Below are positions 3,744 through 61,129 of a stretch of 64,000 nucleotides of DNA, in pieces. Position 1 is the first letter of the stretch. Each line of letters begins with the position of its first letter. This DNA is from a virus. The position numbers and the translations under genes were made by a program. Where the stretch lies: IMG/VR virus record IMGVR_UViG_3300035670_000170, positions 4,977-68,976 of that record. One strand, 5' to 3'. The notes under the pieces are model-generated. The model saw nothing but the letters and a program-made list of their open reading frames with translations. It searched no databases and was not told the DNA's origin.

Positions 3744-3786
3744 GGGGGATAAACGCTATAAATACGCCACAAGCCCCCAGTTAGCC
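3744..3786 (+). other. conserved array-head site (attI-like), copy 1
   Basis: GGGGGATAAACGCTATAAATACGCCACAAGCCCCCA-GTTAGCC. Confidence 0.8.
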
Positions 3787-3792
3787 GTAATT

Positions 3793-4059
3793 CTAATCAC
3801 GCCAAGTGATGTGCATTGCTTCTAACTTATCGCCAAGTAACGAACTGCCATAGTTTTCAAACTTCATTTTTAGTGAAGGATATACTTCTAAATCATTTGG
3901 GCATTGTATTTTAAATGGTAGCTTTCGTTTATCTTCTGAAATTTGTAATGCTTCTAAAATGAAGTCATTCAAACTTTTGTCTTCGGAAGAAGAACTACGG
4001 ATAACAACGTATTGCTGAACATTGCCATCTTCATCTGTTATTTGAACTTTGTATTCCAT
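3793..4059 (-). CDS. cassette hypothetical protein (paralog of 61130..61393)
   Basis: 88 aa, closely similar to the array D copy. First ~20 codons lie inside the att hairpin. Confidence 0.85.
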   Translation of the reverse strand: MEYKVQITDEDGNVQQYVVIRSSSSEDKSLNDFILEALQISEDKRKLPFKIQCPNDLEVYPSLKMKFENYGSSLLGDKLEAMHITWRD

Positions 4060-4132
4060 ATCAACTTTTTATTTTAAATTAAATATTTGTGCTTCTAAAT
4101 TGGCAACGTCAGCAATACGCAAAACGTTAGGC
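3999..4132 (+). other. attC-like hairpin A1
   Basis: GGATAAC; arm CGTATTGCTGAACATTGCCA; loop; arm TGGCAACGTCAGCAATACG; AAAAC; GTTAGGC. Confidence 0.8.
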
Positions 4133-4140
4133 ACAATTAA

Positions 4141-4317
4141 TTAAGCAGCATTCGGCCAATCATAATAAATTTGCTTAGTTCGCCAAAACCAAAAAGTGTA
4201 ACCGAAGCATTCGACAAACATCGCTTCAAATTTCTTTTCACCTGTTTTGTAATTTGTGTGGAAAAACATTTTAGAGTTCCACTTTTTGTTTTTTGATTTG
4301 TACTTTTTAAAAACCAT
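4141..4317 (-). CDS. cassette hypothetical protein (58 aa)
   Basis: MVFKKYKSKNKKWNSKMFF...DWPNAA, fills cassette A2, below the ORF-track cut-off. Confidence 0.65.
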   Translation of the reverse strand: MVFKKYKSKNKKWNSKMFFHTNYKTGEKKFEAMFVECFGYTFWFWRTKQIYYDWPNAA

Positions 4318-4335
4318 TTTCGTAAAATTAACTGT

Positions 4336-4429
4336 GCCTAACAGCGTATATGTGCAATACGCTTCAAGCGGTTAGTAATAATTTAAAGTTTTGTCATTGC
4401 GTACTGCACATATACGCAAAACGTTATGC
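4336..4429 (+). other. attC-like hairpin A2
   Basis: GCCTAAC-A-GCGTATATGTGCAATACGC...GCGTACTGCACATATACGC-AAAAC-GTTATGC. Confidence 0.85.
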
Positions 4430-4464
4430 CCAGAATTGACGTTACCAAATCGGGCGCGGCAAAA

Positions 4465-5121
4465 TTACTTGTCCCCGTCAGGATTCCATTCTTCTTTCTT
4501 AGCCCTTCCTTGTACAACCCATTCTAATGGGTCACGGTTAATATCCCTGCCGAACACAACACCAAACTTTCTGTACGCACCCTTATAGGCTAAACTCTCT
4601 GCTAACGGTAGCTTCTTTTGAAGTTCAAAGGGGTCGCGCATATCCTCAAGTAACGCACATCCAACGCCCATGTGTGACACGCCCGATTTGCTATCGCACA
4701 CCTCTGCCACCACCACCACGTTACCTACCTCTACGCGCCATTCCACAATGCGTGACGACCGAAAAGGCATCAGCACGTCGGCAGTGTCCTCAAGGTACTG
4801 TATTGGCACGTAGTTGACGTCGGGTAGCTGCGGGTGCTTGCGTATTGCGTCAGGCGGCACAGGGGAAGAAAATGATTGTGAAACCTTTTCCTCTACGGGC
4901 TGGTCAACCTTTTCTTTTGGCTGCTTATTTTTGGGTGTAATCAGTTTTATTTCGTCTATCTCGATTGACCAACGGGAGCCTGTGCCGCCTGACTTTGGGT
5001 TGTCCCAAGAAACATCTACGTCTTTTTTGGACACTAAGGCGACTGTCCCTGTACCGCCCTTGCGTATAAACTCATTACCAACAAGGCTCTTAACCCTGTC
5101 GCCTACCTTAAAATTGCTCAT
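4465..5121 (-). CDS. Sak/Rad52-like ssDNA annealing protein with N-terminal KVGDRV domain
   Basis: YVPIQYLE...GVG...AESLAYKGAYRKFGVVFGRDINR resembles Rad52/Sak, adjacent to an exonuclease. Confidence 0.65.
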   Translation of the reverse strand: MSNFKVGDRVKSLVGNEFIRKGGTGTVALVSKKDVDVSWDNPKSGGTGSRWSIEIDEIKLITPKNKQPKEKVDQPVEEKVSQSFSSPVPPDAIRKHPQLPDVNYVPIQYLEDTADVLMPFRSSRIVEWRVEVGNVVVVAEVCDSKSGVSHMGVGCALLEDMRDPFELQKKLPLAESLAYKGAYRKFGVVFGRDINRDPLEWVVQGRAKKEEWNPDGDK

Positions 5122-5137
5122 GTTAAACTATTGTTAA

Positions 5138-5878
5138 TTAAACTTCAATTACTTCTTCAATGGGTGTGTAGCTGCGCTTATCACACAGTTTGTTGAACAG
5201 GCAGTCAGCACACACGTTACAGTCCTTCGTGGGTATAGGCTCAAACTTGTTAACCATGTAGTCACGCACTTGGTCAATGATACGGTAGTGGTTTTCCATC
5301 GCTTCACTGCTGATACGGGCGCGGATAAACTTTATCCACCCGCTTTTGCCGAACACCAGATAGTAAAACGGGCGCACCACCCCATCGCGCAGGTAAGAAC
5401 CAAGGGTATAGTGTACAGCCTGTGTATGGTCAAGTGCATCAGGGACGCCCCACCCATACTTACCCTTGTCGTCTTTACGTGATGCAGTGTACTTAATGTC
5501 AATGATAACACTACTACCTTCGTAATCAGCAATGCAGTCAAGGTGAAACACCAAGTCCCCTTCAATGATTTCCGGCTGTACCTCTGTCACCTTTATGCCC
5601 ATCTTTGGTAGTGTGTTTTGCTTGTGGTACTTCGCCTGTGATACGGCTTGTGCTGCCCATGCGTAGCTTCCTTCCCCACGCTGTTTCTTTGGCGGCTCGA
5701 TCGTCTGGTGTCCCCGTGCGGCACCTATTAGTTCCTGTTCAAAGAGTAGGCCGGAGTACATTGCCTCTGTTGGCTCCGACCGTAGGCCGTCGATGTACTT
5801 TAGCTTGAGCATATAACGGCATCCGTCACGGTCTTGTACGTCCTTTATTAGGGACTGACTTATTAGTAGTTTATTCAT
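5138..5878 (-). CDS. PD-(D/E)XK nuclease (Cas4/RecB-like exonuclease)
   Basis: SQS..K...C, LDCI...IIDIK, Q...Y, C-terminal CxxC..C.....C cluster. Confidence 0.8.
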   Translation of the reverse strand: MNKLLISQSLIKDVQDRDGCRYMLKLKYIDGLRSEPTEAMYSGLLFEQELIGAARGHQTIEPPKKQRGEGSYAWAAQAVSQAKYHKQNTLPKMGIKVTEVQPEIIEGDLVFHLDCIADYEGSSVIIDIKYTASRKDDKGKYGWGVPDALDHTQAVHYTLGSYLRDGVVRPFYYLVFGKSGWIKFIRARISSEAMENHYRIIDQVRDYMVNKFEPIPTKDCNVCADCLFNKLCDKRSYTPIEEVIEV

Positions 5879-5920
5879 GTTGATTTGTTTTTTTGTTGCG
5901 CCCGTTTTGGTAAGGGAATC

Positions 5921-5963
5921 GGGGGCTAAACGCTATAAATACGCCACAAGCCCCGTGTTAGCT
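5921..5963 (+). other. conserved array-head site, copy 2
   Basis: GGGGGCTAAACGCTATAAATACGCCACAAGCCCCGT-GTTAGCT. Confidence 0.8.
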
Positions 5964-6034
5964 GCAAGTGCTACATTGGTACTTCGTATAAAACTTTGGT
6001 GTTCAAAAATTTTATATAAAAAGCCACCGCACTT

Positions 6035-6754
6035 TTAAAACAATTCATATTCTGTTTTTAATAATTTATCTGTAACAAAATCAAAACAACTTTTATCAAT
6101 ATCACCTGCAATGTAATTTCTGCCTTCTTTTTTTGCTGTTACAAGCATATTGCCACCACCCATAAAGGGGTCTATTATTAGCCCTCCTTTTGGAGAGAAG
6201 CATCTAATCAATATTTGACATAGTTCTATTGGCTTTGTTGGTATATTACCCCCATCTTCTCTTTTTCTTTCTATGTTTAATAAATCATTCAGCCAAATCC
6301 CTTCTTTGCTATTAAAAAATGGGTTTGATTTTTCTTTATATCCATCAAAAACTAAATACCCTTTATCTCCTTGTTTGGTATTTGGGCTATACGGCATACC
6401 CGTTCTCGGATTAAAAAAGAAACTTTTTCCGCAACACCAAAATATTTTATGATACGAGTATGTAGGCATTTTATTTGATACCCAGTTACCTGTTTTTATA
6501 TACTTCCATATTATCTCATTCCTAAAACAATAGTTTATTTGGTTTCTTAAATCGTAATCATACGGTTTCTTTGTAAACATTAGAATATTGCCAGTTTCTT
6601 TTAACACTCTAAAACATTCACTTACCAAGCCATCGGCAATAAGTTTTACCCAATCTTGATAATTTGGGTCTAAAAATATTAAGTCGGCAGAATTATCATC
6701 AACTCCTGCAAGTAGTTCAAAACAGTCTTTTTGGTATATTTTATTTAATTCCAT
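6035..6754 (-). CDS. DNA N6-adenine/N4-cytosine methyltransferase (beta class)
   Basis: DLIFLDPNY (motif IV-like), PTKP..L, DPFMGGG (motif I). Start moved to MELNKIY. Confidence 0.88.
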   Translation of the reverse strand: MELNKIYQKDCFELLAGVDDNSADLIFLDPNYQDWVKLIADGLVSECFRVLKETGNILMFTKKPYDYDLRNQINYCFRNEIIWKYIKTGNWVSNKMPTYSYHKIFWCCGKSFFFNPRTGMPYSPNTKQGDKGYLVFDGYKEKSNPFFNSKEGIWLNDLLNIERKREDGGNIPTKPIELCQILIRCFSPKGGLIIDPFMGGGNMLVTAKKEGRNYIAGDIDKSCFDFVTDKLLKTEYELF

Positions 6755-6800
6755 CGTTTTTTTCTTTTTGTTTTTCTGTTTTCGTTTTAAATTGTGCATC

Positions 6801-6846
6801 CTACTAAACTAATCGGGTCTGCATATATTATCTGATATTTCTTCAT
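6801..6846 (-). pseudogene. 5' remnant of an MT-A70-type methyltransferase
   Basis: Reads MKKYQIIYADP then stops; compare MKYEIIYADP at 63384. Confidence 0.5.
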
Positions 6847-6867
6847 GTTTCTAAATTAAATTCGTAA

Positions 6868-6896
6868 ATAAATACGCCACAAGCCCCCAGTTATAG
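6868..6896 (+). other. partial array-head site, copy 3
   Basis: ATAAATACGCCACAAGCCCCCA-GTTATAG, right half only. Confidence 0.75.
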
Positions 6897-7049
6897 GTAA
6901 TAAAATTTGCTAAGTACCCAACATCCTGTAATTATGATGCAACTTACTGTTACGGTTCCTATTCCTATCCATACCAAGTCTCTGTTGGTTACATAAGGTT
7001 CATACCATTCACCACCTTCTCCTTTATCAAGCCATTCTTTTAATTTCAT
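6891..7049 (-). CDS. cassette small membrane protein (52 aa)
   Basis: MKLKEWLDKGEGGEWYEPYVTNRDLVWIGIGTVTVSCIIITGCWVLSKFYYL; its TAA stop lies in the GTTA core. Confidence 0.65.
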   Translation of the reverse strand: MKLKEWLDKGEGGEWYEPYVTNRDLVWIGIGTVTVSCIIITGCWVLSKFYYL

Positions 7050-7067
7050 ATCGCAAATTTTACATAC

Positions 7068-7122
7068 CTATAACAGCAAATAAGAAACATTAAAACGATT
7101 GCTTATTTGCAAAACGTTATGC
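7068..7122 (+). other. attC-like hairpin B2
   Basis: CTATAAC-A-GCAAATAAG...CTTATTTGC-AAAAC-GTTATGC. Confidence 0.8.
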
Positions 7123-7131
7123 GTAATAAGA

Positions 7132-7371
7132 TTAATCGCAGTCTTGACATTTATAGTCTTGTTTGATTATACCCAATTCCACGGGGCAATCTTCATAACC
7201 ATATTTACAACCATGCTCAAAACAGCAATGTGTTCTATGTACTCCCCAACGCTCTTGTGGAATTGACGTTGTTGCAGACTTACTACGCACAACACGTAAT
7301 AAATCCAATTGCTCACTTTCGTACTGTTTAATGAGTGTCTTTGCTTCGTTGTATTGTTCTTCTGTTATCAT
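7132..7371 (-). CDS. cassette Cys/His-rich hypothetical protein
   Basis: 79 aa with HRTHCC..HGCKYG..DCPV. N-terminus is encoded inside the att hairpin. Confidence 0.75.
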   Translation of the reverse strand: MITEEQYNEAKTLIKQYESEQLDLLRVVRSKSATTSIPQERWGVHRTHCCFEHGCKYGYEDCPVELGIIKQDYKCQDCD

Positions 7372-7419
7372 AGTTTTGTTCTTTTAATTCGCAACTGTAT
7401 TTATTACCAACCGTTACCA
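7287..7419 (+). other. attC-like hairpin B3
   Basis: GCACAAC; GTAATAAATCCAATTGC...GCAACTGTATTTATTAC; CAACC; GTTACCA. Confidence 0.78.
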
Positions 7420-7434
7420 AATCGGGCGATACAA

Positions 7435-7965
7435 TTAAGATTCGCTGCTTTCAAGCCCCTTCAGGTAGTCTTGGTAACGGGTGTATGCTTCAGTTAATTC
7501 GTCAGGTTGAAAATCAAGTTGATGAATGTACTCTTTGTCACACCACTCCCCAAACGTCATTACCTTATTAAGTTCACTCACCTTAACGTGTCCAACGGTT
7601 CCGTCGCAAAACTGGACAAGCACAAGTGGTTCGCTAATAACACCCACCCTTGCGCCTTTGTAGGTTGCGTCGTAATATATTTCAGCGGGTTCGGGCTTCT
7701 CTTGTTTGGGGAGTTCGACGTACGATTCGTCTACCCAATCAGTAGGCGTTCCGGTTTTCTCCGGCTCGATGGGTTGGAGATACTCCTGTCGCTGACCAAA
7801 CCTCAGGCTACTACTTTGGAAACGATTGTATATCATGTCCTGCGAATCCCAAATTACCCACGGAGTTGATTGATCGTCCTCAGCTACCGTTCCGGTTGCT
7901 CCGTACTTTAACACACCGTTGTCGACAATGTTACGCACCCTGTCGCCTTTCTTAAATTTTGCCAT
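7435..7965 (-). CDS. hypothetical protein with N-terminal KKGDRV domain
   Basis: 176-aa ORF whose N-terminus is shared with 4465..5121 and 12848..13528. Confidence 0.75.
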   Translation of the reverse strand: MAKFKKGDRVRNIVDNGVLKYGATGTVAEDDQSTPWVIWDSQDMIYNRFQSSSLRFGQRQEYLQPIEPEKTGTPTDWVDESYVELPKQEKPEPAEIYYDATYKGARVGVISEPLVLVQFCDGTVGHVKVSELNKVMTFGEWCDKEYIHQLDFQPDELTEAYTRYQDYLKGLESSES

Positions 7966-8275
7966 TTTCTTTGATTTTACTTGTTCTACGTTTACGATTG
8001 CCTTTGGGTTGCGAAAATTCCGAAATACTTTTCACCTTTCCAACTTTTATTAGGTCGAAAGTTCTTTTCTGTCGGTTATTCATTCGCCTAACGGATGAGT
8101 GGTGGATGAGGATAGGCGTAACGATTTGCCCGTCATCCTTTTGGTACTGTGGCATAGCAAAACGGGCGCCCACCCAAAAATAGTCCGGCATATTCTCATC
8201 TCCCATTGGTATGACAACACACCCATTGACGTGTCTTACTTCTATCACGTCTACTTCTATTACGTAGTATGCCAT
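7952..8275 (-). CDS. hypothetical protein
   Basis: Start moved to MAYY, directly after the repeated leader. Confidence 0.65.
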   Translation of the reverse strand: MAYYVIEVDVIEVRHVNGCVVIPMGDENMPDYFWVGARFAMPQYQKDDGQIVTPILIHHSSVRRMNNRQKRTFDLIKVGKVKSISEFSQPKGNRKRRTSKIKENGKI

Positions 8276-8355
8276 AGCTTGAATGGTTAAAATTGACACG
8301 TTTGCACTTGGTTCTTTTCACTATCATAAAAAGCTGTCCGGTGTTAGCGGACAAC
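8273..8355 (-). repeat. ~85-bp duplicated leader (second copy 9454-9543)
   Basis: CATAGCTTGAATGGTTAAA.TTGACACGTTTGCACTTGGTTCTTTTCACTATCA...AGCTGTCCG..CGGACA.CT occurs at both loci. Confidence 0.9.
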
Positions 8356-8499
8356 TGCGGGGGTCGGGGCGCCCGATTAGGCAATGGATTCTTCGATTAG
8401 CTGAATCGCAATTTGTACAAGTTTAGCACGTGCCGCCCTTGCCTGATTTTACTTCTTCAATCTTTTTCATTGTTCTGTGTGTTTTTCAGTTAATTACCC

Positions 8500-8748
8500 T
8501 CATACTGTGCCAGTTATTTCTATTGCATTTCCATAGGTATAATGAGGATGGCTTTTTGTCCCAGTTTTATAAAAGTTGAAGAAACTATCATAATAACTCA
8601 TTACCCCATTGTTATCCCAACATCTTAATGCTCTTAATGTAAATGTGTTTTCTTTTACTTCACATACTACACCAGTTTCAATCATTCCTTTTTCTTCAAA
8701 AGTTACCGTTTGGTTTAGTTTTACGTTATCAAATTTCCTTGTTTTCAT
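8500..8748 (-). CDS. hypothetical protein (AT-rich accessory)
   Basis: 82-aa ORF with A-rich leader. Confidence 0.7.
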   Translation of the reverse strand: MKTRKFDNVKLNQTVTFEEKGMIETGVVCEVKENTFTLRALRCWDNNGVMSYYDSFFNFYKTGTKSHPHYTYGNAIEITGTV

Positions 8749-8831
8749 TGTTCTTTGTTTTTTACGTTCTTTGTTTCTGAAAGGTTACGATTCAAATATC
8801 ATTTTACCAAATCGGGCGCGGCAAAAATAGG

Positions 8832-8927
8832 TCAGCCATACGTCACCCACATAAGGCCAAACATCACCAAGGCAATGAACACAACATACAACACTATGTA
8901 CAATAACACGGTTACAATGGTTCTCAT
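8832..8927 (-). CDS. small membrane peptide (31 aa)
   Basis: MRTIVTVLLYIVLYVVFIALVMFGLMWVTYG; ATG overlaps the upstream stop; paralog at 9560..9697. Confidence 0.55.
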   Translation of the reverse strand: MRTIVTVLLYIVLYVVFIALVMFGLMWVTYG

Positions 8928-9193
8928 GCGCCAGCGTGTTTAATCTTGCCGCGTGAACGCGTTACCCTGTCCTGTGCTGCGCGCAGCAATAAGTCACAAC
9001 AACATTCCTCTATTTCATCCATCGTGTAGCAGGTGGATTCGTCTACTTGATCTTTCACGTGATCGTTATATGCGTCGTACATCGAAGCGTTAGTAATGGT
9101 CGCGCTTACAGACATATCGCCAACCTCCCCATACACCTTGTAATGTCCGCTGCTGTTTGTTAAACCTATGCGGTGAAATTCTACTGCTTTCAT
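8924..9193 (-). CDS. hypothetical protein
   Basis: Start moved to MKAVEF after the AAATAGAAACC leader shared with 10535 and 11792. Confidence 0.7.
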   Translation of the reverse strand: MKAVEFHRIGLTNSSGHYKVYGEVGDMSVSATITNASMYDAYNDHVKDQVDESTCYTMDEIEECCCDLLLRAAQDRVTRSRGKIKHAGA

Positions 9194-9240
9194 GGTTTCT
9201 ATTTGTTTAGTTGTTAATAATTCCTTACCAAATCGGGCGC

Positions 9241-9456
9241 TCAAAACCCATATTTCCGCATAACAGACAATATACGTTCGCCCTGCTTTACTGTCATCTG
9301 ACGCGTACCGTTCAACACACCATTGATATAAAAGGATGTAGTACCCGCTTCAATGGCTATGCCCTTTTTATTTATGCCGGGGCGGGAGAAAAATTCCTGC
9401 ATCCTCTTTACGGTGTCTTCGTCTACCTTCGGCATCAATTTTCTTTTTCTTTTCAT
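9241..9456 (-). CDS. Cro/XRE-like helix-turn-helix protein
   Basis: INKKGIAIEAGTTSFYINGVLNGTRQMT fits an HTH pattern. Confidence 0.7.
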   Translation of the reverse strand: MKRKRKLMPKVDEDTVKRMQEFFSRPGINKKGIAIEAGTTSFYINGVLNGTRQMTVKQGERILSVMRKYGF

Positions 9457-9559
9457 AGCTTGAATGGTTAAATTTGACACGTTTGCACTTGGTTCTTTTC
9501 ACTATCACTATCACGCAAAGCTGTCCGATTTTATCGGACAGCTATGGGGTTGGTTGTTG

Positions 9560-9697
9560 TCAGGACCCATACTTGTTTGTTACGGACGCCCATACGCAAA
9601 AAAACAATACAAGAGCTATAAACATGGAGTAAAGCAATATGTACAATAACACAGTCAGTGCCGCGCGCCCACACGGTCGCAATCGTTTACGCGTCAT
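9560..9697 (-). CDS. small membrane peptide (45 aa)
   Basis: MTRKRLRPCGRAALTVLLYILLYSMFIALVLFFCVWASVTNKYGS; paralog of 8832..8927. Confidence 0.5.
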   Translation of the reverse strand: MTRKRLRPCGRAALTVLLYILLYSMFIALVLFFCVWASVTNKYGS

Positions 9698-10535
9698 AAT
9701 GCTCCTCCGCGTTTCCTGTGCTTATTTCGCGCTGAATGAGTGCCGGAAGTTTAGAAAGGTCGTAACATATCAGGTAATTCGCCCACTCTTCTATGTACTG
9801 AAATGCCTGTTCGTTTGTGCAGCCAATAACGGCAATTACTTTTTTTACACTTGCTTCAGTAACTCCTTCGTAAAAAAACGATAACTCTTCTGTAAGTTCA
9901 TGAATGGTTGTGCCGTCCTCCTCTGTTTCGTATTTGTATGCCCAATAATCCCAGCCCGCGCTCTTCCCTGTTTTGCTTCTCTTCTCATTGCCGAACCATA
10001 CAAAATCGTTGTTTCTTTTGTGACTGTCATTGCTGAACCAATTACCGTTCTCCCACTTGCCGGCCTCTTCGTTAATTATATCGTGCCCCCCCTTTGAGTT
10101 TAGAAACAAAAGTTTTGATGAGCCGATATAAGACGATATTAGTTCCCTCTGAACCTCGTTTTTTAGAAAGTCATTAGGCAATCGTTTAAGCATTTCGTTG
10201 AAGTGGAATGTATCTGACCGTAAATTGTCGCCAAGGCCGGAGATTATTCCGTTGTGAACAAATCCCAAGTTTTCAGAAACAAAAAACGGGTGAAGATTTA
10301 CGTACTTTTCGTGACCGCTTGTAGCTATTCGGAAGTGCAGCACTATTTTGCCCTGTATGGATGCGCGCACCGTTTTATATCGTTTCTTAAACTCATCGAA
10401 ATTGTAACTCTTAAACTCGTACAGTTTGCCGTTGTCGGAAAATAACATTCCGGCTCCTTCGGGGTTGTTGTCCCAACTATTTTTCAACTCGTTGTCAGTT
10501 ATTACGCCTTTGGCGTTCAAAATTGCTATACACAT
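9687..10535 (-). CDS. class II glutamine amidotransferase (Ntn hydrolase)
   Basis: N-terminal MC, NPEGAG, HFRIAT, HPF, HNG, SDT, WFSN. Confidence 0.88.
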   Translation of the reverse strand: MCIAILNAKGVITDNELKNSWDNNPEGAGMLFSDNGKLYEFKSYNFDEFKKRYKTVRASIQGKIVLHFRIATSGHEKYVNLHPFFVSENLGFVHNGIISGLGDNLRSDTFHFNEMLKRLPNDFLKNEVQRELISSYIGSSKLLFLNSKGGHDIINEEAGKWENGNWFSNDSHKRNNDFVWFGNEKRSKTGKSAGWDYWAYKYETEEDGTTIHELTEELSFFYEGVTEASVKKVIAVIGCTNEQAFQYIEEWANYLICYDLSKLPALIQREISTGNAEEHYDA

Positions 10536-10574
10536 GGTTTCTATTTTTTTATTTGTTGTTACTTTATTTTATTG

Positions 10575-12847: not shown

Positions 12848-13528
12848 ATGACACCGAAGTTTAAGAGGGGAGATAGGGTGAAGAATCTTGTCGAGGATGG
12901 CACAATAAAAAGGGGCGCAACAGGAACAGTGGACGACGACGGGTCTTGCACTCCGTGGGTGATTTGGGATAGTCACGAAATGTTATACTTCGTGATAGGT
13001 GTAGGAATGCGTCGCTATCAAGCAGAATCCGCGCTTGAACTGATTGAGGCGGATGACAAGTCCCTTGCGTTAACCAAAAAACACAGAACAATGAAAAAGA
13101 TTGAGCAGGTAAAAGCAGGCAAGGCTGCTATTGAGAACACCGGAACGGTGGATGAGTTGAACAAGGTGTTAAAGTATTGTTGGCCGGATGATTTAGAATC
13201 CGCCGGGGTTGGTCGTTATTATTACGATGATGAAGGGTGGTGGAGGTCGTATAACCGCAACCCACTTGCAACCTCATACACCGTTCAGGAACTACTCGCG
13301 GAAATTGAGGGTGGTGTTGGCCTTCCAGTTCAGGAGTTGACTTTGCCCACCTTAACCAAGCGGGAGTATTTCGCCTTACAGGGCTTGCTTTCGATATACG
13401 ACACCATAGATATTGTCCCTAATAAAAGCAACGTCGAATACATGGCTAAACTTGCCGTATCAGCCGCCGACGCTCTTATTGCAGAACTTGAAAAATACTC
13501 GGTCAACGCCAATAGCAATGCCCGCTAA
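12848..13528 (+). CDS. composite hypothetical protein (KRGDRV domain plus further segments)
   Basis: Start MTPKFKRGDRV; a second A-rich leader and ATG at 13091; TAA stop lies in a CGCTAAC core. Confidence 0.7.
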   Translation: MTPKFKRGDRVKNLVEDGTIKRGATGTVDDDGSCTPWVIWDSHEMLYFVIGVGMRRYQAESALELIEADDKSLALTKKHRTMKKIEQVKAGKAAIENTGTVDELNKVLKYCWPDDLESAGVGRYYYDDEGWWRSYNRNPLATSYTVQELLAEIEGGVGLPVQELTLPTLTKREYFALQGLLSIYDTIDIVPNKSNVEYMAKLAVSAADALIAELEKYSVNANSNAR

Positions 13529-13563
13529 CTGGTGGCTTGTGGCTACCAGTATCGTTTAGCCCC
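13523..13563 (-). other. conserved array-head site, copy 4 (inverted)
   Basis: Minus strand GGGGCTAAACGATACTGGTAGCCACAAGCCACCA-GTTAGCG. Confidence 0.75.
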
Positions 13564-13624
13564 TTACCAAATCGGGCGAAACAAATAAATCGTGTTGTCC
13601 GTATAACGATCAAATCAAAAGAAC

Positions 13625-14020: not shown

Positions 14021-14031
14021 ATCAAAAGAAC

Positions 14032-14636: not shown

Positions 14637-14678
14637 GGATAACATAGGGCTTGTGGCTACTGGATGCGTTTAGCCCCC
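14637..14678 (-). other. conserved array-head site, copy 5 (inverted, apparently empty)
   Basis: Minus strand GGGGGCTAAACGCATCCAGTAGCCACAAGCCCTAT-GTTATCC, followed 2 nt later by TACCAAATCGGGCGCG. Confidence 0.78.
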
Positions 14679-27687: not shown

Positions 27688-27774
27688 TTTTGCCGCGCCC
27701 GATTTGGTAACGTTTTGCGGTTATCGGGGGCTAAACGCTATAAAACTACCACAAGCCCCGTGTTATGTGCCATT

Positions 27775-28294: not shown

Positions 28295-28314
28295 TTCGTT
28301 TGAAAATTAACCGC

Positions 28315-28409
28315 GCCCAACAGCGGTTTAGCGCAATGCCGCTGAGAGTGCAGTGGTTAAAATTAAGTTTGTAATATGCGGCACTGCGCCAAGCCGCAAA
28401 ACGTTACAC
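28315..28409 (+). other. attC-like hairpin C2
   Basis: GCCCAAC; GCGGTTTAGCGCAATGCCGC...GCGGCACTGCGCCAAGCCGC; AAAAC; GTTACAC. Confidence 0.85.
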
Positions 28410-57078: not shown

Positions 57079-57866
57079 TGGGGGCATTTGGGAAAAGCGG
57101 TAGTGGTATTTACAAGATGGGTGGTGATGGTGCATCGTCCGTTGATGTGAATGTTAATAGTTCTCTTGAGGGTTCTGTTTCAAGTGCATCTCCTATTGAC
57201 ATTGATATTACTGATGGAAGTAGCCCTGTAACCCCTGATGCTGTAAGTGTTGTTGGCAATACGGTAACTATTGAAGTTCCTGCGGCTGCTGCGCCAGTTG
57301 GTGCTACGCTTATGAAAACGGGGCAAACTACTTCTTATCGTACTGGCGATGATGGGGATTTGCAGGCAGGCAGAGCAACAGACATCACCACGCTGGCCAG
57401 CAATAACCCCTTTGGTAATACAGACAGGTTTACCGATGAGTTAGGGGGGCAAACCTACACTAACGACATCGTGATTGATTGGAGCACTTATGATGGCAGT
57501 ACGGTGTTGGGCTGGCGAAGAACTATTAACGGAACTGGTATAAGCTGGAACAATGCGATTGATGGAGCTTTATTAGTTAGCATAGGCACATTTACAAGCG
57601 GATGGAAATTGCCAAATTTGAACGAAATGGCAAGTTTGTTCAATGCTTCAAAAAATATGTTTGGCAGTACTGGCCCGTCCCCGTGGACAAGCGTAATTGC
57701 AGGCGGTAGCTTATGGACATCCACCACCTCTTATAGCAGCACGGCCACAGCGTTACGTTTGAATACTTCAACGGGAGAATTTGATAGGTCGTCAAAGACC
57801 AATTCATCACAACATTTTTATATGCCCTGCCGCACCTTCACAGTAACAGGAACAACACTTACATAA
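57078..57866 (+). CDS. DUF1566/Lcl C-type-lectin-like fibre protein 1
   Basis: KTGQTTSY..GDDGDL..G, ID..T..GW, W..A, GWKLPNLNEM, WTST. Confidence 0.8.
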   Translation: MGAFGKSGSGIYKMGGDGASSVDVNVNSSLEGSVSSASPIDIDITDGSSPVTPDAVSVVGNTVTIEVPAAAAPVGATLMKTGQTTSYRTGDDGDLQAGRATDITTLASNNPFGNTDRFTDELGGQTYTNDIVIDWSTYDGSTVLGWRRTINGTGISWNNAIDGALLVSIGTFTSGWKLPNLNEMASLFNASKNMFGSTGPSPWTSVIAGGSLWTSTTSYSSTATALRLNTSTGEFDRSSKTNSSQHFYMPCRTFTVTGTTLT

Positions 57867-57867
57867 T

Positions 57868-58101
57868 ATGAAATACAAATTTGAACAATTCAAAGTAACA
57901 ATAGACAACCCAACGGTAACGGTTGACATGAATACCATTCGGGATAAAGCTATTGACAAACTTTTGAGCGTGGACATTATATTAACAACCAACACGGCTT
58001 CGTTTGGCGTAACGGCTGAAGATATGCCATACGACCCAACGTGGGAGGACGACATGGTTCAGGATATGGTTAATAATTGGCTTGTGCAATTTGAAGTGTA
58101 A
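57868..58101 (+). CDS. small partner of fibre protein 1
   Basis: 77 aa, NP.V...TWED..V; paralog-like to 58790..59155. Confidence 0.65.
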   Translation: MKYKFEQFKVTIDNPTVTVDMNTIRDKAIDKLLSVDIILTTNTASFGVTAEDMPYDPTWEDDMVQDMVNNWLVQFEV

Positions 58102-58166
58102 TTTTTATAGTTTACACAAGTATATTTTTTTTTACAAAAGATTATACTTATTTTATTCTTCGATTT

Positions 58167-58793
58167 ATGGGGGCATTTGGGAAAAGCGGTAGTGGTATTT
58201 ACAAGATGGGTGGTGATGGTGCATGCCCTGAAAGGTATAATTCTGCCAACCCTTACAAGACGGGACAAACCACATCGTATGTAAGCAACGATGATGGCGA
58301 TTTAGAACGTGGTAGAGGTTCGGATTTCACAACGCTTGACTTTAATAACCCGTTTGGAAACACCAATAGATTTACCGACACGCTGGGCGGTCAGACGTAT
58401 GCGAATGATATTGTTATTGATTGGGCGACTACCAACTACATAGCGGAAACAGTTATCGGTTGGTATCGGGTAGTTCAGGGTGGTGCAGGAGTTAATTGGA
58501 CTACGGCAATGGCAGCACAACCAGTAACGGCAGAGGGGTACAATGATTGGTACGTGCCCAATAAGAATGAATTTACTTTAATAATTAGCAGCGAGAATAG
58601 TATAAACTACAATCCTTTTAGTTTAACCCATAACTTGTGGACATCAAGTTCGCGCGATGCAAGTGCGGCAAGAGTTTATCAAGAAACACAAAAAGATTTA
58701 CAAAGTCAAACAAAAACATTGACATTGCTAAATGGTAACGCAATAGGCTACATATTACTACGTTACTTCACCTTCACAGAATTAGGACTATGA
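58167..58793 (+). CDS. DUF1566/Lcl C-type-lectin-like fibre protein 2
   Basis: Same motifs (KTGQTTSY, GYNDWYVPNKNE, LWTSS); first 58 nt identical to protein 1. Confidence 0.8.
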   Translation: MGAFGKSGSGIYKMGGDGACPERYNSANPYKTGQTTSYVSNDDGDLERGRGSDFTTLDFNNPFGNTNRFTDTLGGQTYANDIVIDWATTNYIAETVIGWYRVVQGGAGVNWTTAMAAQPVTAEGYNDWYVPNKNEFTLIISSENSINYNPFSLTHNLWTSSSRDASAARVYQETQKDLQSQTKTLTLLNGNAIGYILLRYFTFTELGL

Positions 58794-59155
58794 TACCAAT
58801 TAAAAACACATTTGAAGTCGAAACCCATCCGGGGGTTACGATAGTAAACCCCGACATTGAATTGGTGACTACGGTGGACATCGCCCGTGATGAGGTGTTT
58901 CAGCCTACGGTGATAATCCACGCAGAAAACATAAAGATTTACCACGTGCTGCCCTTGCAGCCATACGTTGACGGAACGTGGACGGATGAGGACGTTGACA
59001 ATGCAATAGTTAATTACTTCACGCTGTTTGGCGGCAGGGCTTCAAGGAAGTCGGTTAGGATGCCAAATCGGGCGGGACAAAAGAAATTGAAGGCCATAAA
59101 AAAAACAACGATATGGAAAAGGATATTGTCATACCTAAAAAAACTATTCGCATGA
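58790..59155 (+). CDS. small partner of fibre protein 2
   Basis: NP.I...TWTDEDV with a basic C-terminal extension. Confidence 0.6.
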   Translation: MIPIKNTFEVETHPGVTIVNPDIELVTTVDIARDEVFQPTVIIHAENIKIYHVLPLQPYVDGTWTDEDVDNAIVNYFTLFGGRASRKSVRMPNRAGQKKLKAIKKTTIWKRILSYLKKLFA

Positions 59156-59394
59156 TACACAACGTAGACAACTTGAAGGAATCAATATCCGACGTAATAG
59201 GATGGGGCGGCACGATTATGGCTGTCAGCTTCCCGCTTTTGGACGGCTTACAGCAATGGGCGCAAACACTTGGCGCCTGTGGTGGTGTCGTCCTCCTCTT
59301 TATCACAATCATAAACAAGGTGCGTGATTCACGGATAAAGAAGTTAGAGATTAAGAAACTTGAAAAAGAGATTAACGATGCAGAAGGTTTATGA
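59152..59394 (+). CDS. holin-like membrane protein
   Basis: Hydrophobic segments plus a charged C-terminus, in the lysis region. Confidence 0.5.
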   Translation: MIHNVDNLKESISDVIGWGGTIMAVSFPLLDGLQQWAQTLGACGGVVLLFITIINKVRDSRIKKLEIKKLEKEINDAEGL

Positions 59395-59578
59395 CTTTGT
59401 AGGCGGTCGCAAGATGTTTGTGGCCTTCCTGTTGTTCGCCCTTAGTGGGTCGCTGTGGTTCTTTAACCGTGACATCATGGCATCCGACCTGTTCCAGTTT
59501 TGGGAGTGGGTAACGGCAATCCTTGTGGTGGGAAATGTAAGTAGTAAGTTCGCTAATCGGGCGCCCGAAAACAAATGA
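59378..59578 (+). CDS. holin-like membrane protein
   Basis: GGRKMFVA, two TM helices, VGNVSSK. Confidence 0.6.
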   Translation: MQKVYDFVGGRKMFVAFLLFALSGSLWFFNRDIMASDLFQFWEWVTAILVVGNVSSKFANRAPENK

Positions 59579-59606
59579 CATGGAATAGCCTAAAGTAAAT
59601 AGATTG

Positions 59607-59807
59607 ATGGACGGGTTTTGTAAAATTACTATTCAGACCGAGGACGTGCAGAAAGCGCAGCGGATGCTTGCTGTTGACGACGTGTTTATTAAGTTGTGGG
59701 AAGTGTATCAAATCACGACGTGGAACGACCTACGACCAGACCAACAGGTGGAACTGATTAGGGAACACATCAACATAGAACTTTTTGAGCAATACCATTG
59801 GACATGA
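59607..59807 (+). CDS. hypothetical protein
   Basis: Short ORF with ATGA overlap to the endolysin. Confidence 0.55.
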   Translation: MDGFCKITIQTEDVQKAQRMLAVDDVFIKLWEVYQITTWNDLRPDQQVELIREHINIELFEQYHWT

Positions 59808-60286
59808 TAAGGGAATCCATCCTACAATTCGCATCCGCCGACATCGGCACAAGAGGGCCGGAAAAGTACAACGATTGGTTCTACAATCGCGCAGGGTACA
59901 AGTACGCCCATTGCGCTACGGCTGTATCATATTGGTATTTTTGGGCATCGCAGCATTGTGGGATAGCCTACCCATTAGCCGACGTGGAAACACCGGAGGG
60001 GGTAAAGTATGTGCCTATCCTTGTCAACCACGCCCGAAAGCATGGGAAGGTTACGACCGACCCGCAGCCGGGTGACATCGTTTGTTTCGACTGGGACAAG
60101 AACGGCGGGGCTGACCATGTGGGCATCTTTGAAAAGTGGGCCGACCGGAAAGCCGGATTGTTTTATGCTATCGAAGCCAACACAACGCCCGACGGTACTT
60201 ATGGCAGTCAGGATCGCGGAGGGTGGCAGGCGCGGAAGCTACGCCACACACGGCTGGTTATTGCGTTCTGTAATTACTTGGACTGA
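59804..60286 (+). CDS. CHAP-domain endolysin
   Basis: CATAVS, PQPGDIVCFDW, DHVGIF, IEANT. Confidence 0.88.
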   Translation: MIRESILQFASADIGTRGPEKYNDWFYNRAGYKYAHCATAVSYWYFWASQHCGIAYPLADVETPEGVKYVPILVNHARKHGKVTTDPQPGDIVCFDWDKNGGADHVGIFEKWADRKAGLFYAIEANTTPDGTYGSQDRGGWQARKLRHTRLVIAFCNYLD

Positions 60287-60537
60287 TGGTTAGAATGAAT
60301 TTACCGATGTTTGTGCTGCTGCTTGGTGCGGTATTCGTGTTGGCTGGTGTTCTTATCGGCAAGGGATGTTCACGCACGGAAACGCCACAATACGACTTTA
60401 GGCGGGTGGATTCACTACAACGGGTAGTGGACGACAGGGGTAAAGAGATTGAACGCCTGAAGGGGCTTCTGATTGAAAGGATAGACACGCTTCCACGCGA
60501 TGTTCAGGACAGCCTTATCGACGTGTGGTTGAGGTGA
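60286..60537 (+). CDS. spanin-like membrane protein
   Basis: N-terminal TM, Cys and short coiled coil, directly after the endolysin. Confidence 0.45.
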   Translation: MVRMNLPMFVLLLGAVFVLAGVLIGKGCSRTETPQYDFRRVDSLQRVVDDRGKEIERLKGLLIERIDTLPRDVQDSLIDVWLR

Positions 60538-60568
60538 TACACCGAAGCCAGTATCGTTGAACGGGTAG

Positions 60569-61069
60569 TTAGCCTTCATTGACCAACACACCGTCCGAAC
60601 CTCTACTTTTCTCCCTGTCAATAGCCCATTGCTTCATTGGTGGCTGCGGCTTGCCTTCCCTATATTCCTGTGAGTGTTTGCTACACACCGTCCAATATCC
60701 CGTGTCACGCCAACAACCGCCGCCGTTTGCGCCTTCTTGCTCACACCCTTCAACTTCGCACCACCCAAAATAAGGTTCTTGTTTTTCCTTCGAATCCGTC
60801 AATGAAAGGCTGACGTTAAAGGCCACAAGTTGCAAATGTGATACCTGTAACGTAGTTACATTCTCCATCACGTACCGTCCATTGAACGACCTCTTGTACT
60901 TCTTTTTCCAGCCGTTTTTAGAGTAACGCCTGTGTTCTGATGTCAACACCGTGCGGGTGATTTTCACAACCTTTGAGGTGTCGTCGATTAGAACCAAGTA
61001 AGCCAACCGCATTGGCTCGCCGAATGTCCCCTCTGTGCGTATTGTCTTGAAGTCTATTTTCTTTACCAT
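60569..61069 (-). CDS. chimeric hypothetical protein (C-terminal half is a cassette)
   Basis: 166 aa; C-terminal Cys-rich half bounded by GTTAGCCTTCATTGAC (60568) and GTCAATGAAAGGCTGAC (60814). Confidence 0.65.
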   Translation of the reverse strand: MVKKIDFKTIRTEGTFGEPMRLAYLVLIDDTSKVVKITRTVLTSEHRRYSKNGWKKKYKRSFNGRYVMENVTTLQVSHLQLVAFNVSLSLTDSKEKQEPYFGWCEVEGCEQEGANGGGCWRDTGYWTVCSKHSQEYREGKPQPPMKQWAIDREKSRGSDGVLVNEG

Positions 61070-61129
61070 GTTATTGATATTCGGGGCTAAACGCTATAAA
61101 TACGCCACAAGCCCCCAGTTAGCCGTAAT

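What the first reader, a model, noticed from the sequence alone, without database searches (positions are those of the whole stretch)
3744..61124. Seven copies of a conserved head site, including an apparently empty one, suggest an attI-like docking site
Seen: consensus GGGGCTAAACG-N8-9-RCCACAAGCCCC-NN-GTTA at 3744, 5921, 6868 (right half), 27726, 61083 (+) and 13523, 14637 (-). The central segment varies (CTATAAATAC, CTATAAAACT, ATACTGGTA, CATCCAGTA), while the flanks and the GGGGCT/AGCCCC inverted repeat are kept. Similarity stops right after GTTA. Every copy lies at the 3' end of a gene, pointing against transcription. The 14637 copy runs straight into the dispersed motif with no cassette. 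Inference: this is the primary recombination site, so new cassettes would enter at the promoter-distal end, opposite to the integron Pc logic.
Basis: partly seen in the sequence, partly recalled or inferred. Interest (0 to 1): 0.82.

Follow-up and report, generated by a model that had tools for sequence, protein, structure and literature searches.

The report
Boundary site of phage gene-cassette arrays
A 39-base sequence repeated seven times in a lytic Bacteroidota phage marks the end of each run of small swappable gene cassettes, so it looks like an integron-style docking site, although the phage has no recombinase of its own.

Summary
There are seven copies in the complete 68,976-bp phage genome. 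All are intergenic, and all are antisense to the gene whose 3' end they touch. The window is a DTR podophage of a Bacteroidota host, not a bacterial element.

The GTTA end of the head is the complement of a TAAC box. This box closes about half of the early genes here, and it closes the same cassettes in many unrelated phages. An 88-aa ORFan cassette occurs in 16 IMG/VR and 7 GTDB contigs. In those contigs nucleotide similarity starts just after one TAAC (or CAAC) box where the upstream flank can be read, and it ends at the next box in nearly all of them. None of them carries the rest of the head.

Cassettes are separated by TAAC…GTTA hairpins with compensatory changes. Hairpins of the same family lie beside methyltransferase genes in Polaribacter phage P12002L, where clusters of attC sites without an integrase (CALINs) are published. 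All five hairpin-cassette runs (four here, one in a second phage) end at a head. Two cassette alleles were acquired independently, and each lies next to a head. A 99.5%-identical module in a second phage breaks exactly at GTTA.

No tyrosine, serine or Y1 recombinase is encoded. The head shows no RNA-structure signal and no terminator features.

Verdict: attI-like in position and behaviour, but not an integron member. The catalyst is unknown. A regulatory element that acts as a passive recombination linker remains a serious rival.

The parts
3745..3783 (+). Head copy 1 (GGGGAT variant). It lies between the 88-aa cassette (3793-4059, minus strand) and DnaB (2317-3693, minus strand).
5922..5960 (+). 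Head copy 2. It lies between the methyltransferase gene (6035-6799, minus strand) and the PD-(D/E)XK/Cas4-like nuclease gene (5138-5878, minus strand). Dispersed motif 5899-5913 lies 8 nt to its left.
6866..6893 (+). Half head: only the right arm plus GTTA is kept. The TTA at 6891-6893 is the stop codon of the 52-aa ORF 6891-7049 (minus strand).
27727..27765 (+). Head copy 4. It lies in the 812-nt islet between the terminase and portal genes, after the 72-aa ORF 27775-27993 (minus strand). No co-directional gene follows it.
61083..61121 (+). Head copy 5. It lies between the 87-aa cassette (61130-61393, minus strand) and the 166-aa gene (60569-61069, minus strand). Homology with phage G001 ends at 61121.
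13526..13563 (-). Head copy 6. The TAA of its TAAC (13526-13528) is the stop codon of ORF 12809-13528 (+). Dispersed motif 13564-13578 abuts it.
14640..14677 (-). Head copy 7, the 'empty' one. Its GTTA side lies 4 nt from inverted dispersed motif 14621-14635, which follows the stop codon of ORF 14232-14612 (+).
3784..4129 (-). 88-aa cassette, allele A. It comprises the tail AATTACGGC after the TAAC core, the ORF 3793-4059, and the hairpin 4002-4129, which encloses the start codon.
61122..61460 (-). 87-aa cassette, allele B. Its hairpin 61336-61460 has stem changes that compensate relative to allele A.
4329..4426 (-). attC-like hairpin: TAAC, a 5-nt spacer, a 19-bp stem, a loop, the second stem arm, T, then GTTAGGC. 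It lies upstream of the 58-aa ORF 4141-4317.
7069..7122 (-). attC-like hairpin with loop TCGTTTTAATG, lying between the 79-aa and 52-aa ORFs. Family members lie at 61872-61925 and 63443-63496.
   Evidence: (D16)
28308..28406 (-). attC-like hairpin at the far end of the terminase-portal islet. It runs into dispersed-motif-like sequence 28404-28430.
27696..27710 (+). Dispersed motif CGCCCGATTTGGTAA, 16 nt left of head 27727. Equivalent copies lie at 5899-5913 (+) and 13564-13578 (-), with a partial one near 3706-3716. Inverted partners close the arrays at 4442-4456, 7414-7428 and 28404-28430.

Best explanation
The head is the fixed, sequence-conserved end piece of integron-like cassette arrays in a virulent Bacteroidota podophage.

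**Layout.** Read in head orientation, each array runs: optional dispersed motif, head, G|TTA, then (cassette plus its own hairpin) repeated n times, then an inverted dispersed motif. Each cassette starts with TTA.., carries one reverse-oriented small ORF, and ends with a TAAC…GTTA hairpin that holds the ORF's upstream region. The last bases of the head (GTTAGCC, complement GGCTAAC) are the same core at which every cassette is joined to the next.

**Most likely mechanism.** A tyrosine recombinase of the Xer/IntI kind is supplied in trans by the host or a co-infecting element. It pairs the right half of the head (CCACAAGCCCC-NN-GTTA) with the folded hairpin of an incoming cassette and exchanges strands at G|TT, so new cassettes land next to the head.

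**Shown:** copy number, strand lock, junction position, cassette identity across phages, array architecture, independent acquisition, and absence of a phage recombinase.

**Inferred:** the enzyme, the single-strand hairpin substrate, and the direction of entry.
For: **The element**
- There are seven copies against about 1 expected, and none in the 6 other phage records searched with up to 2 mismatches except one copy in G001. The exact two-arm pattern found G001 alone in IMG/VR and nothing in the metagenome or GTDB collections.
- All 7 of 7 are antisense to the adjoining gene.

**G001, a different 36-kb phage**
- It shares window 59603-61121 at 99.5% and 98.9% identity over the two aligned pieces. 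The match ends at the A of GTTA.
- Beyond that point G001 has another methyltransferase, only 29% identical over 62 aa.
- Its head is of the 61083 type, including NN = CA, so the head travels with the backbone gene.

**The 88-aa cassette**
- It is found in 16 full-length IMG/VR loci (plus 2 partial) and 7 GTDB contigs.
- Mean pairwise identity is 0.76 in the 20 nt ending in TAAC and 0.32 in the next 20 nt, over 153 pairs of 18 sequences.
- Upstream, similarity starts just after another TAAC (or variant) box in 14 of the 16 IMG/VR loci. It does so in 5 of the 6 GTDB contigs whose upstream flank is present.
- None carries the rest of the head.
- The two copies in the window are not sisters. Allele A is 92-94% identical to five foreign loci, in a clade with 100/99 support that excludes allele B (82.5% identical). 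Each allele sits directly next to a head.

**Arrays and boxes**
- All 5 of 5 hairpin-cassette runs end at a head.
- TAAC lies within 25 nt of the stop codon in 19 of 37 early or accessory genes, against a background of 0.121 (p = 8e-9).

**Structure contrast**
- The hairpins are structured: 9 of 20 pairs are compensatory across 3 window copies and 2 Polaribacter phage P12002L copies.
- The head has 0 compensatory pairs of 8.

**Literature.** Qi et al. 2023 (PMC9892861; abstract and section 3.4 read) report attC clusters without an integrase in virulent phages, including P12002L. IntI1 recombined 5 of 6 tested phage attC sites at G|TTRRRY.

**Other**
- The terminase-portal gap is 58-60 nt in two distant relatives but 812 nt here, and it holds one such array.
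- In one jumbo-phage record (G016) an Xer/IntI-like recombinase gene lies 108 nt from the same cassette's junction.
Against: - The complete DTR genome has no match to PF00589, PF00239 or PF01797.
- Among the 16 records that carry the cassette, 4 have a tyrosine recombinase. Only one of those is adjacent, and it is interrupted by a frameshift in the record.
- Seven copies per genome and reversed ORFs are unlike any described attI.
- The junction rule holds for any TAAC box, including the end of the dispersed motif, so the rest of the head is not needed to explain the junctions.
- In G013, the sequence after the cassette is not repeated, so other phages show no head equivalent.
- Microhomology at TAAC-G(T/G)TTTGC could give the same junctions without a site-specific enzyme.
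- If the cassette inserted at random among about 20 TAAC junctions, both alleles would land by a head with a chance of about 0.1. That argument is therefore weak on its own.
- No filled 14640 locus or empty head locus was seen in the contigs of the 4 runs (1 study) that hold this phage.
- There are no close relatives for locus-by-locus comparison. The best terminase large subunit (TerL) identity among IMG/VR contigs is 39%.
Confidence: 0.45

Rival explanations
1. The head is a PeSL-like regulatory linker. It would be a phage-specific leader, operator or promoter-proximal element for backbone early genes (DnaB, nuclease, methyltransferase, and the 166-aa, 131-aa and 65-aa genes). It would be conserved because a phage protein binds it. 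Cassettes would change beside it only because short conserved boxes (TAAC plus neighbours) act as patches for homologous or microhomology recombination, as proposed for the promoter/terminator PeSL motifs of T4-type phages.
For: - In 6 of 7 copies a co-directional start codon follows within 13-61 nt.
- The head is lineage-specific and conserved in sequence, as expected for a protein-binding site.
- The junction rule applies to all TAAC boxes, not only heads.
- Several hairpins share TAACGTTTTGCG, which is usable microhomology.
- The phage encodes a Cas4/PD-(D/E)XK nuclease next to head 5922. It also encodes a small protein with a DnaA domain-IV helix-turn-helix at G0 311-841.
- For PeSL precedent I read only the abstract of PMC4122927 and saw PMC2839356 in a search listing.
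Against: - Copy 27727 has no downstream gene; it faces the 3' end of the terminase gene.
- The half head keeps only the GTTA-proximal arm, at a cassette junction.
- The head matches no host-type Bacteroidota promoter (consensus recalled as TTTG-N19-21-TAnnTTTG). Such promoters do occur elsewhere in the window, at 35120 and 36258.
- The 10-nt centre differs between copies.
- The junctions are nucleotide-precise in 25 loci, which is tighter than expected for crossovers spread within a homologous patch.
Confidence: 0.35
2. The head is a decayed or minimal attC-type site that belongs to the gene on its GGGG side. It would be a short hairpin (GGGGCT/AGCCCC stem) with an R'-type GTTA and a weak R''-type GGCTAAAC, copied with those genes and no longer special.
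For: - The head occupies exactly the position that hairpins occupy after other TAAC boxes.
- GGCTAAAC and GTTAGCC are an imperfect inverted repeat.
- Copy 13526 has an inner 9-bp hairpin (z = -2.13).
- The 166-aa gene left of head 61083 itself ends in GGCTAAC.
Against: - At 39 nt, the head is well below the published attC length range (57-141 nt, a recalled figure).
- 0 of 8 pairs are compensatory, and folding energies are like those of shuffles.
- Complementarity beyond TAAAC/GTTA is not kept in 5 of 6 full copies (by inspection).
- The seven copies are near-identical, while the true hairpins differ in their stems.
Confidence: 0.1
3. The head is an intrinsic terminator or an RNA processing or stability hairpin at the 3' end of the upstream gene.
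For: - It is always 3' of a gene and strand-locked.
- It contains a 6-bp GC-rich inverted repeat.
- One copy sits at a convergent gene junction.
Against: - No T-run follows the stem.
- The terminator scan of 1-20000 lists none of the five heads in that range, while it does find clear hairpin-plus-T terminators at 1214-1193, 8356-8332 and 19922-19952.
- On the sense strand, z-scores are -0.51, -0.42, +0.25, -1.16, -2.13 and +0.35.
- No covariation is seen and there is no Rfam match.
- In 23 other loci the 88-aa cassette lacks the head, so the head is not that gene's 3' signal.
Confidence: 0.05
4. The copies are chance or assembly-derived repeats with no function.
For: Logan unitigs break at the heads because the heads are repeats.
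Against: - 0 of 100 shuffles reach 7 copies.
- Strand and position are consistent in 7 of 7 copies.
- The contig has direct terminal repeats and an estimated completeness of 100%.
- The repeat is shorter than a read, and the same site is present in an independent record, G001.
Confidence: 0.05

Closest known systems
Integron attI site
   Same: - It is conserved in sequence rather than in structure.
- It is lineage-specific.
- It ends in a GTT-type core.
- A cassette array starts at that core.
- Similarity to other contexts stops at the core.
   Different: - No integrase gene is adjacent or present anywhere in the genome.
- There are seven copies per genome, not one.
- Cassette ORFs point towards the site, not away from it.
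- No Pc-type promoter logic applies.
- No L-box or direct-repeat architecture was identified.
Clusters of attC sites lacking an integrase (CALINs) in virulent phages (Qi et al. 2023, PMC9892861), including Polaribacter phage P12002L
   Same: - Small cassettes, methyltransferases among them, are separated by TAAC…GTTA hairpins in an integrase-less lytic phage.
- Three window hairpins share the loop TCGTTTTAATG and the flanks with hairpins beside P12002L gp35/gp36.
   Different: - The parts of that paper I read describe attC sites only. They mention no repeated sequence-conserved end piece and no inverted boundary motif.
- I could not see its supplementary coordinates, so the identity of 'my' P12002L hairpins with its attC1/attC2 is inferred.
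PeSL promoter/terminator cassettes of T4-type phages (PMC2839356, PMC4122927)
   Same: They are short conserved intergenic motifs in hyperplastic early regions, and unrelated small genes are swapped at them.
   Different: - PeSLs are described as composite promoter/terminator motifs acting through homologous recombination.
- The head shows no promoter or terminator features.
- The junctions here are nucleotide-precise at a 4-nt core shared with structured hairpins.
Species-specific attC repeats of sedentary chromosomal integrons (e.g. Vibrio repeats; recalled knowledge)
   Same: Near-identical copies of one site recur beside different genes and are strand-locked to them.
   Different: - Those repeats are long structured attC sites within one array under one integrase.
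- The head is 39 nt, unstructured, and sits once per array.
IS200/IS605-type elements and their gene-carrying derivatives (recalled knowledge)
   Same: - Insertion occurs next to a fixed tetranucleotide.
- They have subterminal hairpins instead of terminal inverted repeats.
- They are strand-specific.
   Different: - No Y1 transposase is found in this phage or in G001; it is present in 2 of the 18 records searched.
- The same tetranucleotide lies at both ends of each cassette.

Membership tests
Integron (attI plus intI platform) | Integron-type tyrosine recombinase gene next to the site | tested here: not met
   PF00589 gives 0 matches at E<=1 in the complete genome, while the control rings in 14 of 14 genomes. 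PF00239 gives 0 matches.
Integron (attI plus intI platform) | Site ends in a GTTRRRY-type core at which cassettes are joined | tested here: met
   The cores read GTTAGCC, GTTAGCT, GTTATAG, GTTATGT, GTTAGCG and GTTATCC. Only GTTA is invariant, and the RRRY part is only loosely kept. Junctions lie at this core in G001 and in 23 cassette loci.
Integron (attI plus intI platform) | Single attI per platform, with cassette ORFs pointing away from it under Pc | tested here: not met
   There are seven copies, and all adjoining ORFs point towards the head.
Integron (attI plus intI platform) | Recombinase-dependent attI x attC strand exchange | not testable with these tools
   This needs a conjugation or plasmid assay like the one in PMC9892861.
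attC site | Imperfect hairpin with R''/R' and L''/L' boxes, conserved in structure rather than sequence | tested here: not met
   For the head, 8 pairs are predicted, 0 are compensatory, and z-scores run from -2.1 to +0.5. The neighbouring hairpins do meet this feature, with 9 of 20 pairs compensatory.
attC site | Score above threshold with the IntegronFinder or HattCI attC model | not testable with these tools
   The model is not available here, and Rfam gave no match in the window.
CALIN (two or more attC sites, no integrase) for the surrounding arrays | Clustered attC-like sites within a few kb and no integrase | tested here: inconclusive
   Hairpins lie at 4002-4129, 4329-4426, 7069-7122, 28308-28406, 61336-61460, 61872-61925 and 63443-63496, and there is no integrase. 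No formal attC model was run.
PeSL-type regulatory linker | Contains an early promoter and a terminator stem-loop | tested here: not met
   The head holds no host-type promoter match, is not among the terminator-like sites, and has no T-run. A promoter for a phage-specific factor cannot be excluded.
PeSL-type regulatory linker | Unrelated genes are exchanged at the motif between related phages | tested here: met
   G001 differs from the window at 61121, and different cassettes lie beside the seven heads.
Intrinsic terminator | Stable GC-rich hairpin followed by a T-run | tested here: not met
IS200/IS605-type mobilisation | Y1 HUH transposase | tested here: not met
   PF01797 is absent from G000 and G001 and present in 2 of the 18 records searched. 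Supply in trans is not excluded.

The most novel reading that the evidence does not exclude
A strictly lytic phage carries several integrase-less, integron-like platforms.
- Each has a sequence-specific docking site (the head) and is bounded by an inverted pair of a second motif.
- Each is filled with reverse-oriented cassettes whose hairpin recombination sites enclose their own expression signals and start codons.
- The cassettes are drawn from a pool shared by many unrelated Bacteroidota phages and prophages.
- Exchange is catalysed in trans by a host or helper Xer/IntI-type recombinase.

This would be a phage-level counterpart of the integron with inverted expression logic.
Probability: 0.3. 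Interest if true: 0.85.

Novelty: new variant of a known kind. Interest (0 to 1): 0.7.

Why it matters
Phage genomes are mosaics, but the mechanism that places small accessory genes (methyltransferases, ORFans, likely anti-defence genes) at exact positions is largely unknown.

Here one ORFan cassette has nucleotide-precise ends in 25 loci from unrelated phages and Bacteroidota genomes. In one phage, every cassette run abuts the same 39-bp site. If that site is a docking site, then integron-style gene capture operates in virulent phages without a resident integrase.

That idea is directly testable with a head x hairpin recombination assay. It would also give a rule for finding accessory-gene hotspots in Bacteroidota phages. 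If the head is instead only a regulatory linker, it extends the PeSL idea beyond T4-type phages.

Tried and rejected
- **RNA evidence.** No RNA holder was listed for the window. Four DNA runs from one study hold it.
- **Variants in contigs.** Laying their contigs on 1-20000 gave unitig breaks at heads and loose ends. Most of these are explained by the other head copies or by the G001-type phage.
  - Two X3 contigs join a different sequence to 6890, the G of GTTA of the half head.
  - One X3 contig diverges at 6036.
  - No variant was found at 14640.
  - 182 loose ends and 218 contig pieces were not shown to me.
- **Known RNA families.** Rfam at E<=1 gives 0 matches.
- **Isolate phages.** Megablast of 25567-30934 and 2300-8300, and blastn of the cassette 3786-4135, against 50,697 phage records gave no match.
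- **Dispersed motif elsewhere.** A 16-mer of the dispersed motif hits IMG/VR as 8 single hits with no further copies and no homology. These were treated as chance.
- **Distant relatives.** Four TerL relatives (38-39% identical) hold no dispersed motif in the loci fetched from them. No head was found in the whole records of the three searched.
- **239-aa gene.** Its relatives were not found in IMG/VR.
- **Head equivalent in G013.** The sequence after the cassette there is not repeated.
- **T7-type RNA polymerase.** The PF00940 search was uninformative because its control rang nowhere.
- **Annotation.** Pfam, PHROGs and NCBIfam scans of about 60 proteins found no recombinase or transcription factor.
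- **Ideas considered and dropped.**
  - A DnaA box in the head: only CCACA is shared.
  - A T4-late-type TATAAATA promoter in head orientation: it is antisense to all genes and absent from 3 copies.
  - A tandem in-frame stop codon: the frame is not consistent between 3745 and 61083.

Full report
**What the window is**

The window is bases 4977-68976 of a 68,976-bp IMG/VR virus record. The record has a 103-bp direct terminal repeat and an estimated completeness of 100%.
- It encodes a terminase large subunit (25567-27687), a portal protein (28499-30934), a DnaB-type helicase (2317-3693, minus strand), an N6/N4 methyltransferase (6035-6799, minus strand) and a Cas4/PD-(D/E)XK nuclease (5138-5878, minus strand). 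It also has a CHAP endolysin and a 2784-aa ORF.
- The terminase is 34-35% identical to those of Flavobacterium, Cellulophaga, Tenacibaculum and Maribacter phages.
- Host-type promoters of the Bacteroidota kind (consensus recalled) occur before late genes.
- A cassette gene of this phage recurs in Flavobacterium, Weeksellaceae, Petrimonas and other Bacteroidota assemblies.
- Early and replication genes run leftwards from about 12.6 kb and wrap through the genome ends to 60569. Structural genes run rightwards from 12.8 kb (ORFs are longest-ORF calls).

The right arm occurs 7 times against 1.1 expected, and 0 of 100 shuffles reach that number. The left arm accounts for 6 of 9 matches; the other 3 are coding-sequence look-alikes without a right arm. 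The whole genome has exactly 7 copies.
- Invariant columns, on the gene-sense strand, are TAAC, GGCTTGTGG and TTTA.
- The centre is 9-10 nt and differs between copies. One copy (6866-6893) keeps only the GTTA-proximal half.
- All seven are intergenic and antisense to the gene whose stop codon lies 0-74 nt from the TAAC.
- The head is specific to this lineage. The exact two-arm pattern finds one other IMG/VR contig, and none in the metagenome or GTDB collections.

**It is not a terminator or a structured RNA**
- No T-run follows the stem.
- None of the five heads in 1-20000 is listed by the terminator scan, which does find three classical terminators.
- Folding energies match those of shuffled sequence. 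The z-scores run from -2.13 to +0.35 on the sense strand and from -1.27 to +0.53 on the other.
- None of the 8 predicted pairs shows a compensatory change.
- Rfam finds nothing in the window.

**The GTTA end is a junction**

The only other record with a head, G001, is a different 36-kb phage.
- It shares with this genome a lysis module (100% aa), the N-terminus of a tail protein (88%) and sequence near the terminal repeat.
- The shared module is 99.5% identical over 1044 nt and 98.9% over a further 185 nt. It ends at window 61121, the A of GTTA.
- Beyond that point G001 has a methyltransferase where the window has an 87-aa gene. The G001 head is of the 61083 type throughout, so the head stays with the backbone gene and the neighbour changes.

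Within the window, the unit 'upstream region + 88-aa gene' is present beside heads 3745 and 61083. Similarity between these two copies ends at the GGGG end of the head.

**The junction belongs to a general TAAC box**

The 88-aa gene was found in 18 IMG/VR loci (16 full length, 74-90% aa) and 7 GTDB contigs.
- In 24 of the 25 full-length loci (23 foreign plus the two window copies), nucleotide similarity runs to ..AATTACGGCTAAC (or ..CAAC) and then stops. L051 ends in a close variant of the box.
- Identity is 0.76 in the last 20 nt and 0.32 in the next 20 nt.
- Upstream, similarity begins directly after another xxTAAC (or variant) box of an unrelated preceding gene in 14 of the 16 IMG/VR loci. 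It does so in 5 of the 6 GTDB contigs with that flank present.
- None of these loci has the rest of the head.
- In the window, TAAC lies within 25 nt of the stop codon in 19 of 37 early or accessory genes. The figure is 9 of 38 for late genes, against a background of 0.121. The dispersed motif also ends in TAAC in one orientation.

**What separates the cassettes**

After TAAC there is usually a hairpin of the form TAAC, a roughly 5-nt spacer, a 12-20-bp stem, a loop, the second arm of the stem, T, then GTTA.
- Three window copies and two from Polaribacter phage P12002L share the loop TCGTTTTAATG and the flanks but differ in their stems. Nine of 20 pairs show compensatory changes.
- The hairpin of the 88-aa cassette encloses its start codon. 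The two alleles differ by compensating changes that reach into the coding sequence.
- The same grammar is seen in arrays of small genes in unrelated IMG/VR loci and in G001.
- Qi et al. 2023 (PMC9892861; abstract and section 3.4 read) reported attC clusters without an integrase in virulent phages, including P12002L (a cluster with two methyltransferases). They showed that IntI1 recombines 5 of 6 such sites at G|TTRRRY.
- I could not see their supplementary coordinates. That the hairpins beside gp35/gp36 are their sites is therefore inferred.
- Judged by where cassette similarity starts and ends, the integron-type orientation is the head orientation.

**Where the heads sit in this system**

In head orientation, four arrays in the window have the following layouts.

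| Array | Left boundary | Head | Cassettes | Right boundary |
|---|---|---|---|---|
| 1 | partial motif 3706 | 3745 | 88-aa and 58-aa cassettes | inverted motif 4442 |
| 2 | motif 5899 | 5922 | methyltransferase, half head, 52-aa and 79-aa cassettes | inverted motif 7414 |
| 3 | motif 27696 | 27727 | 72-aa and 70-aa cassettes | motif-like 28404 |
| 4 | none | 61083 | 87-aa, 109-aa and further small cassettes | genome end |

- G001 has one more such run ending at its head. All 5 of 5 hairpin-cassette runs therefore end at a head.
- Array 3 fills an 812-nt gap between the terminase and portal genes. That gap is 58-60 nt in two distant relatives.
- Copy 14640 has the inverted motif 4 nt from its GTTA, so it looks like an array with no cassette.
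- The two 88-aa cassettes are not sisters. Allele A groups with five foreign loci (92-94% identity, support 100/99). It is 82.5% identical to allele B. The same cassette family therefore arrived twice, each time next to a head.

**What is missing**

The complete genome has no match to the tyrosine-recombinase, serine-recombinase or Y1-transposase families. The first two have ringing controls in 14 of 14 and 13 of 14 genomes.
- Among the 16 records that carry the cassette, 4 have a tyrosine recombinase.
- In one (G016, 334 kb) it lies 108 nt from the cassette junction. It scores best against XerA/integron-integrase models but below their cut-offs. It is split by a frameshift in the record.
- No close relative of this phage exists in the collections I searched.
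- The 4 runs (one study) that hold the phage gave no filled 14640 locus.

**Reading**

The head behaves like an attI in five respects:
- its position at the start of each array;
- conservation of sequence but not of structure;
- lineage specificity;
- a GTT-type core as its last bases;
- a change of neighbour exactly at that core.

It fails integron membership on the integrase, on copy number and on ORF orientation.

The junction rule can be explained by the TAAC box alone, and microhomology could replace a site-specific enzyme. A regulatory leader that serves passively as a recombination linker, as proposed for T4-type PeSLs (abstract of PMC4122927), therefore remains a strong rival.

I put the docking-site reading at 0.45 and the linker reading at 0.35. 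The remainder is split between a decayed attC, a terminator and no function.

Noticed in passing
window-wide, e.g. 4442-4456, 5899-5913, 7414-7428, 13564-13578, 27696-27710, 48539-48553: The dispersed 15-mer CGCCCGATTTGGTAA has 38 copies with up to 3 mismatches, against 2.0 expected.
- It lies right after stop codons in one orientation and 16-46 nt before start codons in the other.
- Inverted pairs bracket the cassette runs.
- About 17 copies lie inside coding sequence, in all three reading frames, mostly with the same strand as sense. It is therefore a DNA-level signal.
- It is absent from G001 and from the distant relatives.
   Followed up: partly
window 7069-7122, 61872-61925, 63443-63496; L042 (NC_028924) about 29992-30058 and 30895-30961: One structured hairpin family has an invariant loop TCGTTTTAATG and TAAC/GTTA flanks. 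It is shared between this metagenomic phage and the isolated Polaribacter phage P12002L. Nine of 20 pairs are compensatory.
   Followed up: partly
window 4002-4129 and 61336-61460 (minus strand): A stem of about 20 bp pairs the upstream region of the 88-aa gene with codons about 15-22 of the same gene, enclosing the start codon. The two alleles differ by compensating changes on both arms.
   Followed up: partly
window 3793-4059 and 61130-61393; loci L023-L040, L047-L053: An 88-aa ORFan with no Pfam, PHROGs or NCBIfam family is 74-90% identical in 16 unrelated IMG/VR contigs (12 kb to 640 kb). It also occurs in 7 GTDB contigs: Flavobacterium, Weeksellaceae, Petrimonas, a Bacteroidota MAG, one contig labelled Gammaproteobacteria and two unnamed.
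   Followed up: partly
L034 3265-4150 (record G016, 334 kb): A tyrosine recombinase gene lies 108 nt beyond the TAAC of the 88-aa cassette. Its best matches are the XerA/integron-integrase models (111 and 101 bits, below their cut-offs). The reading frame shifts near residue 220 in the record.
   Followed up: partly
G001 (L013+L014) against window 57195-61121 and the genome ends: A different 36-kb phage from the same study shares several parts with this phage: the lysis module (100% aa), 230 aa of a tail protein (88%), and sequence at the terminal repeat (94-99%). This points to recent exchange between two phages, probably of one host.
   Followed up: partly
window 27688-28498 and 30935-32500: Two minus-strand gene islets are inserted in the plus-strand structural block, one after the terminase gene and one after the portal gene. 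Each is bracketed by inverted dispersed motifs. Relatives have terminase and portal 58-60 nt apart.
   Followed up: partly
genome 311-841, minus strand (L041; outside the window): A 176-aa protein carries a DnaA domain-IV helix-turn-helix (Pfam E = 4.8e-7, just below the cut-off). It is a candidate binder of one of the repeated motifs.
   Followed up: no
window 6788-6846 (minus strand): A 19-codon ORF begins MKKYQIIYADP and sits 8 nt from the half head. It looks like the stump of a methyltransferase N-terminus. The methyltransferase proper probably starts at the MELNKIY methionine near 6754.
   Followed up: partly
window 48226-56580: A 2784-aa ORF has no Pfam family. It contains DVDFD at residue 2233 and DVDTD at residue 2635. 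Whether it is a virion RNA polymerase like those of crAss-like phages was not tested.
   Followed up: no
window 35090-35127 and 36228-36265: A classical hairpin-plus-T terminator is followed by TTTG-N17-TACCTTTG before the 366-aa late gene. TTTG-N19-TATATTTG follows that gene. These are host-type Bacteroidota signals that the heads lack.
   Followed up: no
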